From positions 24,430,001 to 24,494,000 of the forward strand of contig CM097885.1 of assembly GCA_044892525.1 (NCBI GenBank): a DNA stretch of 64,000 nucleotides, read 5' to 3'. Shown here in pieces: positions 12,601-48,900 of this stretch (the first letter of the stretch is position 1; each line of letters begins with the position of its first letter). The stretch comes from Schmidtea polychroa. Taxonomy: Eukaryota. A program made the translations under genes and the position numbers. The notes under the pieces were generated by a model. The model did not search any database, was not told the DNA's origin, and saw only the letters and a list, made by a program, of their open reading frames with translations.

Positions 12601-13951
12601 AAAGTAAATTATGGTCTAAATAAGTAAATTATGGTTCAAATTTTTCAATTAAAGTAAATAATGGTCCAAATTTTTCAATTAAAGTAAATTAAGGTTCTAA
12701 AAATTAAATTACAGTAAATAATGGTCCAAATTTTTAAATTAAAGTAAATTAAGGTTCTAAAAATTAAATTAAAGTTAATTAAGGTCCAAATTTTTAAATT
12801 AAGTAATCAATGGTAAAAAAATTTTAAATAAGTAAATTAAAGTAATAATTTTTAAATAAGTAAATTAAAGTAATGTAATAAGTAAATTAAAGTAAGATTT
12901 TAAAATTTATTAACAAAAAGTTGAAAGTGTTTGAGAATTGAAATTTTTTAATGAAAATTTTTATGGAATAATTTTTTAAGTAATTTTTAATGGAAATTTT
13001 TATGAAATAATTTCTTTAGTTAATTTTAGATGGAAATTTTTAAGATAATTTTTAATGAAAATTTTTATGAAATATTTTTCAAAGACAAATTTTAATAATA
13101 ATTCAACAACAAACCAACAACTTAGTACCAACAACCAGTAACTTACGAACATGTTTTAACAACTAGATACCTACAACTAGTTACTAACAACTAGTTACCT
13201 GATATCAACTACTCACAACCAACAACAACCAGTTACTAAGCATTATTAACCAACTACTAAGTACCTACAACTAGATACCACGTACTAAATAACTCTCAAA
13301 CAACCAAGTACCTCCAACTAGATACTAACAACTAGATACCAAGTACCTACAACTAGATACCACGTACTAACTGACTCTCAAACAACTAGATACTAACAAC
13401 CAGTTACCTGCTACCAAGTACTTACAACTAGTTACTAACAACCAACCAACTAGGTACTAGATACCAAGTACTAACAACCAACAACAACCAGGTACTAAGC
13501 ATTATCAACCAACTAAATACTAAGTACTAACAACCAACCAACTAGGTACTAGATACCAAGTACTAACAACCAACAACAACCAGGTACTAAGCATCATCAA
13601 CTAACTACTAAGTACTTACAACCTACAACTAGATACTAACAACCAGTTACCTGATAAGTAGTAGGATGTGAGCTCCCCAGACCATGTCCCCTCCAGATCA
13701 CATATACCCCCCCCCCCGGGAAAAAATTTTATTTTTTTTTTTAGAACGATGCCTAATATTTTTAGAACTATTACGTAATCAATGCCTAATATTTTTAGAA
13801 CGATGCCTAATATTTTTAGAACTATTACGTAATTTTTTTTAAATTAAGTGATCCAGCGGGGACCTACTTTTTTTCTTCCCAAAAGTAATGTTCCCGCCAA
13901 CAAATTTTATTAACCGATACCTCATCTTCAAGCTCAGTCCAAGACCTTTCG

Positions 13952-45900: not shown

Positions 45901-48900
45901 TTTAAAAAAAATTACGTAATAGTTCTAAAAATATTAGGCATCGTTCTAAAAATATTAGGCATTGATTACGTAATAGTTCTAAAAATATTAGGCATCGTTC
46001 TAAAAAAAAAAATAAAATTTTTTCCCGGGGGGGGGAGGGGGTATATGTGATCTGGAGGGGACATGGTCTGGGGAGCTCACATCCTACTACTCTGATACCA
46101 AATACTTACAACTAGATACCAAGTACTATCAACCAAAAACAACCAACCAACTAGGTACTAGATACCAAGTACTAGCAACCAACAACAACCAGGTACTAAG
46201 CATTATCAACCAACTAAATACTAAGTACTAACAACCAACCAAATAGGTACTAGATACCAAGTACTAAGCATTATTAACCAACTACTAAGTACCTACAACC
46301 AACTAGCTACCACCTACCAAGTACCTACAACTAGATACTAACAACCAGTTACCAAGTACCTACAACCACCTACCCATTAACTAGCTACAACCAGCTAACA
46401 ACTAGCTACCAACTACCAAGTACTAACAACCAACTAGCTACCACCTACCAAGTACTAACAAACAGTTACCAACTACTAAGCATTAATTACCTACAACTAG
46501 TTACTAACAACTAGATACCAAGTACATACAACCAACAACTAAGCATTATCAACCAAGTACTAACAACCAAGTAACTTACCTAGTACTAAGCACTGTCAAC
46601 TAGATACCAAACACTTACAACCAGATGACCACATGAAATTATTGGTTAAATATGAAAATAAGGATTATATTTAGTTGTTAAGTAAATTATGGTGTAAAAT
46701 TAAGAAATAAAGAATAATTAGGTAAATTAAAGTTAAAACTTTTAAATAAGTAAATTAAGGTTCAAAATTTAAAATTAAGTATCCAATGGTTCAAATTTTA
46801 AATTAAAGCTAAATAAGTAAATTAAAGTAAGATTTTTAAATTTATTATCAAAAGATTGAATAACCACCAACTTTTTTGAGAAATGTAATTTATAATGAAA
46901 ATTTAAATGGAAATTTAAATGGAATAATAATAATAATAATAATAATAATAATAAAAATACTAATAATTCAACAGTTACCAACAATCGGTTACTGATTATT
47001 TTTTAACTAGGTGCTAACAAATACTTACACCATGATACCACGTACTAACTAAATCTCAAACAACCAGATACTTACAACTAACTACTAAATATTCTTTATT
47101 GTATTTTATGAAATGCTTTTTAAATTAATTTTTTATCTATCTTCAAAAATATGTTTAATTACAATCAATAGAAAACCTTTTCAAATTTAACAAAAATGTT
47201 GATTTTCATCAAAAAAACCACAACTCATCACCACGTGGAATTCAAAATAATTTTAATTACAATGAAAGACTAATGAATTCTAATTTACAAAACATTCTTC
47301 TTTTAAATGATAACTACTGACTTATTATTGCAAAGTAAAAATCGCATTCAATAAATACTTATTGTTGATCAGTTTTATTATATATACTCTTAGTCTATCC
47401 GACAGGATGTTTTGACCCCCTAAGGGTACAGGTCGTAAGGGCACTGGTCGTAAAGGTATTAGTCGTAAGGGTACTGGTCGTATGGATATTGCTAACTCTC
47501 AACCCCCCATCTACCAATTAACTAGATACTAACAATCACCATAAAAACCCATCGAGAAATTAACAAATATCAACCTACAACTATATAACAACAATCAGTA
47601 AACAACACTATACCAACTACCAAATATAAGATACCAACAACTTAATATCATCTACCAGTAACTATAAACACGTATTTTCAATTAGATACCAAGTACTTAC
47701 AACAATATACCAAACGCTATCAGTTAAGTACTTACAACAAGATACCAAAACTATCAGCAAAATACTATCAACCAGATACCAAGTACCAACAATCAACTAA
47801 CAACACATAAAAATAATAGCAATTAAATACAAAATATTCTTCATCGCATACACTATTTTCTTATCAAAATCTAAAAAGTCAACCAACTACTTATAACCTA
47901 CAACTATGTATTAACAAATTGATCTTTAAAAGCAAATACTCATCACTTGAAAATATTTGATGAAAAATTAATTGAACTCAAGGAACTTTTAAGATTTACC
48001 AATAACTAGGTAAAAATTGATTAAATTATTGTAAAAATTTAAATTATTCTAAATATACTAAATAAAAACATATAATTAATAGACAAGAAAGAATTCTAAT
48101 CATTAATCATCCAGTAAATAAAAAAATACTGATCATTCAAGTTGAATCAACTAAGATATTAAATTAATAAGATAAGATTTAGTAGATAATTGATTTAGAT
48201 TGAATAAATTAATTGAAATAAAATTAATTTTAATTTTTTTTTAAAAAGTCATACATGTACTCAAATTGATTGACTGATTTCTCAATATATTCAAAAAATC
48301 AGTATAAATTCATTACAATTATCAAAGTCAGCAATCTACAATAAAAATAATTATCATTAAATTCCAAAAGAGACTAGATAACTAATGATAACATCTAACA
48401 AACCAGTAAATTCATTTAAATGGCAATAATTGGTATATCCAAGTGAATTCTCCAATAAAATCATCTAAAAAGAATCATTTTCCCCTAAATATATCAATAT
48501 TTAAAGATTGGTATTTTAATGATAAGTACTTGTTAAAGATCATATATTCACCTCAAACAAACAAGATTCCTTAAAATCCCCTTAAATGACTATATTTCTA
48601 TCCTTAATTCATATTATTACAAATATCATCTAAAAAGCATCAAATTTCCCTGAAATATATCAATATTTAAAGATTGATATTTTAATGATAAGTACCCGTA
48701 AAGGATCATATATTCCCCTCAGACTAATAAGATTGCTTAAAGTCCCATTTAAATGACTATAATTCTAACTTTAATTCCTATTATCACGAATATTTCCCTA
48801 TAAAACATGTAAAATCATTAACCCTAAATAATTTATAAAATCTAATGATAAAAGCAGTTATAATTAAATTTTTATTCTAAAAATAAATCACTCTATTTGA

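What the first reader, a model, noticed from the sequence alone, without database searches (positions are those of the whole stretch)
13657..46091. Giant fold-back elements with Polinton/Maverick ends and no long ORFs: a candidate satellite (defective-interfering-like) system
Seen: A (14.8 kb) and B (17.6 kb) are each about 95% inverted repeat (arms 7.1/7.0 kb and 7.9/8.8 kb, spacers 696 and 920 bp). They have no long ORF, start with AGTAG, and are flanked by exact 6-bp TSDs whose empty sites are present at 7416 and 45793. Known: AG/AGT-repeat termini and 6-bp TSDs are Polinton hallmarks, and Polinton TIRs are usually at most about 1 kb. Inference: each whole palindrome was integrated as one unit by a Polinton integrase supplied in trans, like a snap-back defective viral genome that still transposes. 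Non-autonomous Polintons are known; I am not aware of this near-fully palindromic architecture being described, but cannot check.
Basis: partly seen in the sequence, partly recalled or inferred. Interest (0 to 1): 0.92.

Follow-up and report, generated by a model that had tools for sequence, protein, structure and literature searches.

The report
Gene-less fold-back satellites of Polinton viruses
Two gene-less, almost fully mirror-image DNA elements of 15 and 18 kb are young, multi-copy parasites of virus-like Polinton transposons in the same animal genome; they share their helpers' ends and roughly their length, which hints, without proof, that they travel in the helpers' virus particles.

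Summary
Confirmed and extended. A (14,801 bp) and B (17,628 bp, nested in A) are gene-less fold-backs with exact 6-bp target duplications. Both sit inside two further nested Polinton derivatives (C, and pPolB-bearing D). Each has a coding Polinton family in this genome with the same 27-nt end, carrying integrase, A32 ATPase, pPolB, a protease fragment and a double-jelly-roll capsid. B's arm begins with its helper's whole 1.6-kb terminal repeat. Other copies have their own TSDs. Arms of one copy usually differ by 0-0.4%, copies by up to 9%. Elements with two different end types keep exact TSDs (8 of 10). Both facts fit re-templating and recombination in a free replicating pool before integration. 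pPolB-carrying fold-backs also occur (46 of 150 top hits, all divergent pairs). Gene-less copies approach helper length (median 96% for B, 88% for A), like size-selected gutless adenovirus dimers, but this rests on two lineages, and short copies also integrate. B's arms are near-identical only over the inner 4.8 kb. Seven paper searches found no description; Repbase, Dfam and key papers could not be checked. This scan earlier noted A's family here (e1-7879908) and a similar element in another genome (e1-7786796).

The parts
13651..13656 (+). left 6-bp target-site duplication of A (CTGATA); right copy 46092-46097
13657..13951 (+). A, first 295 bp of the left arm; AGTAGT end, same 27-nt end as a coding Polinton family
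13946..13951 (+). left TSD of B (CTTTCG); right copy 31580-31585
13952..21853 (+). B left arm: 13952-15588 is the whole terminal repeat of the B-type coding Polinton (end type b1), the rest is non-coding stuffer
17031..21835 (+). inner part of B left arm, exactly complementary to 22828-27632 (4,805 bp)
21854..22809 (.). B spacer, shared with other B-type copies
22810..31579 (-). B right arm; outer 3 kb only 72-94% like the left arm; end type b2
31586..38395 (+). A left arm, remainder
34856..34954 (-). SRP (7SL) RNA-like stretch in A's arm, below Rfam's gathering score; mirror copy 42632-42730 (+)
38396..39091 (.). A spacer, 696 bp; about 693-697 bp between 14 arm pairs among the 40 best genomic hits
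39092..46091 (-). A right arm (7,000 bp); holds the empty B site at 45793-45798
21205..21300 (+). example of a 96-bp module found 19 times in the window (in A, B, C and D) and once in each terminal repeat of the A-type and D-type pPolB elements examined, not in the B-type helper
1..13656 (+). element C (host of A): direct tandem units of the B-type arm, about 6.2 kb each; left end lies 870 bp before the window (L030:9131); empty A site 7416-7421
46098..51681 (+). element C, rest of third unit, part of the spacer and an 85-bp right terminal repeat (51597-51681); TSD CGCGTT at 51682-51687
51688..52213 (.). right part of small element s1 (about 42-bp inverted ends) that hosts C and sits in D's left arm
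52213..54540 (-). element D, inner part of left arm (mirror of 55311-57610, 81-97% alike); outer part with a second pPolB copy is L030:4090-8936
54482..55369 (.). centre of D: a short piece with two inward Polinton-type ends whose flanks are inverted, not duplicated; candidate turning point of the fold-back
55311..62236 (+). element D right arm with a pPolB gene broken into several frames (about 57700-61406); TSD CTAAAT at 62237-62242 and before L030:4090

Best explanation
A and B are non-autonomous satellites of two co-resident Polinton/Maverick families. SHOWN: each arm starts with the helper's terminal sequence and continues with 5-6 kb of non-coding stuffer; the element is an inverted dimer of that arm around a conserved spacer; it inserts whole with a 6-bp TSD; coding helpers with the same ends are young and numerous. 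INFERRED: (1) the helper's integrase inserts them in trans (about 0.9). (2) They are copied as free linear DNA by the helper's protein-primed polymerase. The displaced strand folds into a panhandle as long as the arms, so one arm is re-templated from the other each round, and strands of different copies anneal to give mixed-end molecules before integration (about 0.75). (3) New fold-backs arise when the nascent strand turns back at an internal inverted repeat, as at D's centre (about 0.6). (4) Doubling is kept because it restores helper-like length for packaging into the helper's capsid, as with gutless adenovirus dimers (about 0.4). The confidence given is for steps 1-2 together.
For: Same 27-nt end on coding and gene-less elements: 5 of 27 A-end pairs have the helper's capsid region at their centre, 3 carry pPolB, 19 are A-like; B-end pairs include coding copies L022-L025. 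Helper genes: rve integrase, Pox_A32, Peptidase_C5 fragment, pPolB; capsid model pLDDT 91.6 matching iridovirus, PBCV-1 and mavirus major capsid proteins (best E 5e-17). B arm 1-1637 is the helper's whole terminal repeat. TSDs: 6 of 6 fetched A copies (one only at an outer end), 3 of 4 fetched b1 pairs, 4 of 4 nested window elements. Arms within a copy differ by 0-0.4% in most segments tested, copies by 0.2-8.7% (A) and 5.5-8.3% (B); trees give no left-arm or right-arm clade. Mixed b1/b2 elements keep exact TSDs in 8 of 10, whereas the 12 chimeric Galileo copies lacked matching TSDs (PMC3573991, passages). 46 of 150 top pPolB hits form 23 close pairs, all divergent; two fetched pairs are fold-backs with two long pPolB frames and no other large gene. 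Length: gene-less B-type median 16,859 bp (n=24) against coding 17,581 (n=21); A-type 13,632 (n=19) against 15,551 (n=5); 22 of 24 and 15 of 19 lie within 75-105% of the helper median. Adenovirus precedent: 15-kb gutless vectors are packaged as direct and inverted dimers, and genomes outside 75-105% rearrange (PMC4189039, passages); tail-to-tail dimers are packaged preferentially because of their size (PMC2518115, passages).
Against: No free linear copy, particle or transcript was seen; the public runs laid are short contigs and none spans the stretch. Conversion between arms after insertion can also equalise arms and swap an end while sparing the TSD, and polishing of an assembly could raise arm identity. 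Some arm segments are not homogenised: window D 7.1%, outer arms of B, A at 33978-34586 8.5%; window A and copy L018 are as close (0.2-0.5%) as the arms within A. 2 of 10 mixed-end elements and 1 of 4 b1 pairs lack a TSD. Against packaging: copies of 6.8 and 8.5 kb integrated with clean TSDs; C is 20.1 kb (114%); pPolB fold-backs scatter widely (gene-to-gene 2.7-35 kb); copies share descent, so the size match is two lineages, with only 5 A-type helpers measured; four long coding rows (21.4, 22.6, 26.7, 46.3 kb) were left out and three b1 pairs (9.6, 10.3, 25.3 kb) were not examined. Maverick particles had not been observed as of PMC8097293 (abstract passage, 2021).
Confidence: 0.7

Rival explanations
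1. Galileo-like route: non-autonomous Polinton ends are moved by the helper integrase without free replication; arms grow and are equalised by repair and gene conversion in the chromosome.
For: TIR extension by conversion and chimeric copies are described for Galileo, and that paper says expansion of Polinton inverted repeats has been reported (PMC3573991, passages; the cited source was not seen). Patchy arm identity in window A and B looks like conversion tracts. Short-TIR forms exist.
Against: Galileo TIRs reach about 1.26 kb, here 6.4-8.8 kb. Its two-subfamily chimeras lack matching TSDs, here 8 of 10 have them. The spacer is constant across many copies while the arms differ between copies yet match within each. 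pPolB fold-backs form 23 of 23 pairs in one orientation.
Confidence: 0.2
2. Rival to the packaging step only: the elements replicate and integrate inside the cell, and their length resembles the helper's by descent or chance, not by capsid fit.
For: Two related lineages only (their stuffers are 70-72% alike in places); short copies with TSDs; C at 114%; wide spread of pPolB fold-back sizes.
Against: The longer satellite goes with the longer helper. Half-length forms are a minority (4 of 19 A-type under 9 kb). One A copy refolded around a different centre is again 13.3 kb. Large palindromes are costly, so something favours them (inference).
Confidence: 0.55
3. The palindromes are artefacts of long-read assembly (reads that fold back on themselves).
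For: Exactly complementary arms of several kb; no spanning long read could be examined.
Against: Distinct TSDs at both ends, a conserved spacer, B present in only one arm of A, mixed ends, and diverged arms in D.
Confidence: 0.03
4. They are fold-back elements of an unrelated cut-and-paste superfamily (P/Galileo, MULE) with Polinton-like ends by coincidence.
For: Long, internally repetitive arms are typical of Foldback-type elements (PMC3573991, passages; listing).
Against: Identical 27-nt ends and up to 1.6 kb of shared terminal repeat with capsid-encoding Polintons; 6-bp TSD, against 7 bp for Galileo.
Confidence: 0.02

Closest known systems
Polinton/Maverick elements (PMC8097293, passages read)
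   Same: 6-bp TSD, AGT-type end motif, terminal inverted repeats, total size 13-18 kb; the helpers here carry integrase, ATPase, pPolB, protease fragment and double-jelly-roll capsid.
   Different: A and B have no genes; arms of 6.4-8.8 kb against 46-1,447 bp (mean 402) in intact vertebrate Mavericks; B's end reads AGTAGG, not a perfect (AGT)2; copy numbers far above the vertebrate median of eight.
Non-autonomous Polintons of repeat libraries (recalled, from no call; Kapitonov and Jurka 2006 was not held)
   Same: Helper ends without helper genes, moved in trans.
   Different: I recall them as shorter deletion-type elements; whether any is a near-complete fold-back could not be checked.
Helper-dependent (gutless) adenovirus vectors and dual high-capacity vector dimers (PMC4189039, PMC2518115, passages read; Steinwaerder 1999 seen only as a citation)
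   Same: Gene-less linear DNA with viral ends plus stuffer; inverted and direct dimers arise during protein-primed replication; internal inverted repeats drive rearrangement; length close to the helper's. Element C is a direct multimer and B an inverted dimer of the same arm.
   Different: Laboratory constructs, not integrating natural families; packaging is measured there and only inferred here.
Galileo / Foldback elements of Drosophila (PMC3573991, passages read)
   Same: Non-autonomous copies made mostly of long, internally repetitive inverted arms; chimeric copies; arm extension.
   Different: P-superfamily transposase, 7-bp TSD, arms up to about 1.26 kb, chimeras without matching TSDs.
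Copy-back / snap-back defective interfering genomes (recalled)
   Same: One viral end duplicated in inverted form; dependence on a helper.
   Different: Described for replicating viruses, mostly RNA viruses; no interference is shown here, and most of the arm is not helper sequence.

Membership tests
Polinton/Maverick, autonomous (for A and B) | encodes pPolB and integrase | tested here: not met
   no long frame, no tblastn match to helper proteins inside A or B
Polinton/Maverick, autonomous (for A and B) | encodes capsid proteins, packaging ATPase, protease | tested here: not met
Non-autonomous Polinton derivative | 6-bp target-site duplication | tested here: met
   A, B, C, D in the window; 6 of 6 A copies, 3 of 4 b1 pairs, 8 of 10 mixed-end pairs
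Non-autonomous Polinton derivative | AG/AGT-repeat end motif | tested here: met
   A starts (AGT)2; B, C, D start AGTAG, as do their coding relatives; motif list from PMC8097293
Non-autonomous Polinton derivative | ends shared with a coding Polinton in the same genome | tested here: met
   27-nt ends identical; B shares 1,637 bp of terminal repeat, A matches 1,259 bp in pieces
Polinton/Maverick (for the helpers) | integrase, pPolB, A32-like ATPase | tested here: met
   rve, Pox_A32; 1,415-aa frame aligning with the DNA_pol_B_2-positive window frame. The integrase lies in two frames in the two B-type copies read and in one 351-aa frame in L035; 116 of 116 top genomic hits have no stop
Polinton/Maverick (for the helpers) | double-jelly-roll major capsid protein and adenain-like protease | tested here: met
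   AlphaFold model and Foldseek hits to viral major capsid proteins; Peptidase_C5 over cut-off in 3 of 3 frames, N-terminal part only
Defective-interfering / satellite genome | replicates as a free molecule using helper proteins | tested here: inconclusive
   indirect only: arm homogenisation and mixed ends with TSDs
Defective-interfering / satellite genome | is packaged in helper capsids | not testable with these tools
   length match is suggestive; no particle data
Defective-interfering / satellite genome | lowers helper replication | not testable with these tools
   two fetched copies sit in helper minor-capsid genes, which is not a test
Galileo/Foldback (P superfamily) | 7-bp TSD and P-type ends | tested here: not met
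   6-bp TSD and Polinton ends
Already catalogued repeat family (Repbase/Dfam) | match to a library entry | not testable with these tools

The most novel reading that the evidence does not exclude
A and B are natural gutless satellites of animal polintoviruses: gene-less inverted dimers that keep only the helper's ends, pad themselves to the helper's genome length, are packaged in its capsids and reinfect the germ line. The stuffer lineage has changed helper at least once by swapping terminal repeats, since B's stuffer resembles A's and carries a module of the A-type helper's repeat behind the B-type helper's repeat. The size match would then be a genomic footprint of virus particles that have not been seen for animal Polintons.
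Probability: 0.35. Interest if true: 0.9.

Novelty: new variant of a known kind. Interest (0 to 1): 0.72.

Why it matters
How Polintons replicate, and whether those of animals make particles, rests mostly on gene content. This genome holds young helpers, gene-less fold-back satellites, pPolB-only fold-backs and mixed-end recombinants side by side, which makes both questions testable by sequencing free and nuclease-protected DNA. It also shows that gene-based surveys (integrase plus pPolB) miss a possibly large class of Polinton DNA, and that multi-kb genomic palindromes can be mobile units rather than local duplications or assembly errors.

Tried and rejected
Hidden genes in A/B: none by frame length, Pfam on the one 108-aa frame tested, or tblastn; spliced micro-genes were not tested. 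Rfam at gathering score: 0 matches in the window; at E up to 0.5 only the SRP-like pair and two weak microRNA matches. Sequencing runs: no RNA holder listed, which says nothing on expression; contig depth over arm and spacer was not used as copy number. Candidate counts of the genome searches (3,013; 2,130; 1,589; 2,770; 11,554; 4,890; 12,198) are not copy numbers and were not used as such. I first read 52213-57610 as a separate palindrome and D's end as AGAGTAG at 62238; two searches showed it is D's centre and that D ends at 62236 with a 6-bp TSD. The first coverage figures were too low for copies split over two loci (script error); the arm alignments in that call and one search were used instead. 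The B 350-950 distance table mixes tandem-repeat registers and was not relied on. A targeted preference for inserting into Polintons was considered (all four window elements, two fetched copies) but not tested against Polinton abundance. Sequence look-ups in the scan's earlier notes found no look-alike windows. The capsid homolog search gave no informative names. The host taxon was not established here; flatworm is a guess, also made in note e1-7879924.
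Full report
OBSERVATION. The window is AT-rich and almost wholly repeat-derived. A is 13657-13951 plus 31586-46091 (14,801 bp) with TSD CTGATA and an empty site at 7416; it is 95.3% inverted around a 696-bp spacer. B is 13952-31579 (17,628 bp), nested 295 bp inside A's left arm, with TSD CTTTCG and the empty site in A's other arm at 45793. 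Neither holds a frame longer than shuffled DNA gives or a match to Polinton proteins. Qualification: B's arms are exactly complementary over the inner 4,805 bp but only 72-94% alike over the outer 3 kb, and its ends differ.

SURROUNDINGS. The locus is a nest. A lies in C, a B-type element of 20,110 bp made of three direct units of the B-type arm and an 85-bp right repeat, TSD CGCGTT. C lies in a small element with short inverted ends, which lies in the left arm of D. D runs from L030:4090 to window 62236 with TSD CTAAAT and is itself a fold-back with a broken pPolB gene in each arm. D's centre is a short piece with two inward Polinton-type ends whose flanks are mirror images rather than a TSD. 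That is what a turn-round at an internal inverted repeat would leave (inference).

FAMILIES. The exact 27-nt A end occurs 92 times and gives 27 pairs within 60 kb. I read 6 pairs whole, plus the window's, and the centres of the other 20: 19 of 27 are A-like and gene-less at the parts seen, 13 of those 19 show the turn-round, 3 carry pPolB and 5 have a helper's capsid region at the centre. B's left end type (b1) occurs 150 times and its right end type (b2) 522 times with up to one mismatch allowed; only the first 100 places of each were listed. Of 4 b1 pairs read whole, 2 are coding Polintons and 2 gene-less fold-backs. Of 20 more b1 pairs, chosen because no top-102 capsid hit lay inside, all 20 centres are B-like and 14 show the turn-round. 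Among the 40 best hits of the inner arm end, 28 (A) and 34 (B) form inverted pairs, counted by eye. TSDs: 6 of 6 A copies, one of them only at an outer end, and 3 of 4 b1 pairs.

HELPERS. The coding elements carry TBP, an A32-like ATPase, an rve integrase, minor-capsid-like frames (by position; no Pfam match), a 407-aa frame, an adenain-like fragment and pPolB. The 407-aa protein, folded with 93 homologs, gives pLDDT 91.6 and matches viral double-jelly-roll capsid proteins (the Atlas features agree). The 102 scored capsid hits of the B type are all 100% identical by rounding, and the 116 scored integrase hits of the A type are 99-100% identical without stops, so both families are young. B's arm opens with the helper's whole repeat (1-1637); A matches 1,259 bp of its helper's repeat in pieces. 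The rest of each arm is not helper sequence. The two stuffers are 70-72% alike in three stretches, and B's holds a 96-bp module of the A-type helper's repeat that the B-type helper lacks. I infer one stuffer lineage that changed helper.

MECHANISM. Three results bear on it. First, the arms of a copy are usually each other's closest match: 0-0.4% apart, against 0.2-8.7% between A copies and 5.5-8.3% between B copies in inner segments; trees show no left or right clade. Exceptions: D (7.1%), B's outer arms, one repeat-rich stretch of A (8.5%). The spacer stays constant, so the palindrome is an old family whose arms are equalised again and again. Second, elements with a b1 end and a b2 end are common; I saw about 13 on contig C1, tested 10, and 8 have an exact TSD. 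In Galileo such chimeras lack matching TSDs (PMC3573991, passages), so these more likely formed before integration. Third, fold-backs arise repeatedly: 46 of 150 top pPolB hits form 23 close pairs, all pointing outwards, and two fetched pairs are palindromes with two long pPolB frames, arms 99.7-100% alike in the segment measured. Strand-displacement replication with panhandle formation explains all three (established for adenovirus, recalled; for internal inverted repeats see PMC2518115, passages). Conversion in the chromosome is not excluded.

LENGTH. Gene-less B-type copies have a median of 16,859 bp (n=24, 12,376-18,542) against 17,581 for coding copies (n=21, 16,211-18,124). Gene-less A-type copies have 13,632 (n=19, 6,798-15,343) against 15,551 (n=5, 14,707-16,788). 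22 of 24 and 15 of 19 fall within 75-105% of the helper median (lengths taken by hand). Left out: four coding rows of 21.4, 22.6, 26.7 and 46.3 kb; not examined: b1 pairs of 9.6, 10.3 and 25.3 kb. One A copy refolded on another centre is again 13.3 kb. In adenovirus, 15-kb gene-less vectors are packaged as direct and inverted dimers and genomes outside 75-105% rearrange (PMC4189039, passages); vertebrate Maverick size is constrained, which those authors link to capsids (PMC8097293, passages). Against this: 6.8- and 8.5-kb copies integrated cleanly, C is at 114%, pPolB fold-backs vary widely, and copies are kin, so the match is two lineages. I put packaging at about 0.4.

ARTEFACT. Unlikely: separate TSDs, a conserved spacer, B in one arm only, and a contig of run X8 crossing the fold-back junction. 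No long read was available.

KNOWN OR NEW. Non-autonomous Polintons are known (recalled). Intact vertebrate Mavericks have repeats of 46-1,447 bp (PMC8097293). Searches (listings and abstract starts) showed no description of near-complete fold-back Polintons; searches were for the adenovirus analogy. Passages were read in PMC6431247, PMC3014272, PMC8576890, PMC3185507, PMC11410931 (no hit for Polinton, Maverick, palindrom or foldback in the main text), 10.1101/2024.01.15.575659 (pPolB beside terminal repeats without integrase at 10 nematode loci) and 10.64898/2025.12.11.693146 (Maverick expansion in flatworms); none of those passages describes this form. Kapitonov and Jurka 2006, Grohme 2018, Steinwaerder 1999 and Lieber 1999 were not held. 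I recall that Grohme 2018 mentions long inverted repeats as an assembly problem, which could be such elements unnamed; this is unchecked. No supplements were read, and repeat libraries or supplements may already list these families. The scan noted A's family through its SRP-like insert (e1-7879908; matching Rfam hit) and similar elements in other genomes (e1-7786796, e1-7786907); these are unchecked leads, not support.

VERDICT. Real, mobile and helper-dependent: a new architectural variant of non-autonomous Polintons that works like a defective or gutless viral genome. Membership among satellites in the strict sense (free replication, packaging, interference) is not shown. Interest 0.72; 0.9 if packaging is true (probability about 0.35).

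Noticed in passing
window 1-13656 and 46098-51681 (with L030:9131-10000): Element C is a direct trimer of the B-type arm with only an 85-bp right repeat; the units join inner arm to sub-terminal sequence. It may show the monomer form and a route to satellite arrays.
   Followed up: partly
L030:8936 to window 52213: Small element (about 720 bp without C) with about 42-bp inverted ends and a candidate 5-bp duplication; not Polinton-like; superfamily not determined.
   Followed up: no
window 54482-55369: Inward-facing Polinton-type ends with mirror-image flanks at the centre of D.
   Followed up: partly
G000:C1:266246041-266255877: Five A-type ends in tandem every 2.45 kb.
   Followed up: no
L011-L013: A copy whose inner right end is followed by an inverted copy of the left flank; a second right end 6.9 kb further carries the TSD, as if flank had been copied along.
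   Followed up: partly
L018:1-100, L028:1-100, L033:1-440: Two fold-back copies are inserted in Polinton minor-capsid genes and one abuts a major-capsid gene; with the fourfold nest this may mean targeting or just abundance.
   Followed up: no
G000:C2:2389764-2393916 and C1:67845417-67850773: Two convergent pairs among 102 capsid hits: fold-backs of the capsid-side end probably exist too.
   Followed up: no
window 21205-21300 and 18 further places: 96-bp module repeated along the stuffers and present once in the A-type and D-type terminal repeats; candidate promoter or packaging signal.
   Followed up: partly
window 34856-34954 and 42632-42730: SRP RNA-like stretch in both arms of A, below Rfam's gathering score.
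   Followed up: partly
L024:8606-9688 (-): The B-type helper carries a 360-aa RING-finger frame and a short TBP frame.
   Followed up: no
window 63457-63978 (-): Weak VPS13-like match (E 0.0002, under cut-off); possibly a host exon beyond D.
   Followed up: no
runs X1-X6: The A arm-spacer stretch is held at half its words or more by six runs of two studies, one of them under a second organism label at low depth.
   Followed up: partly
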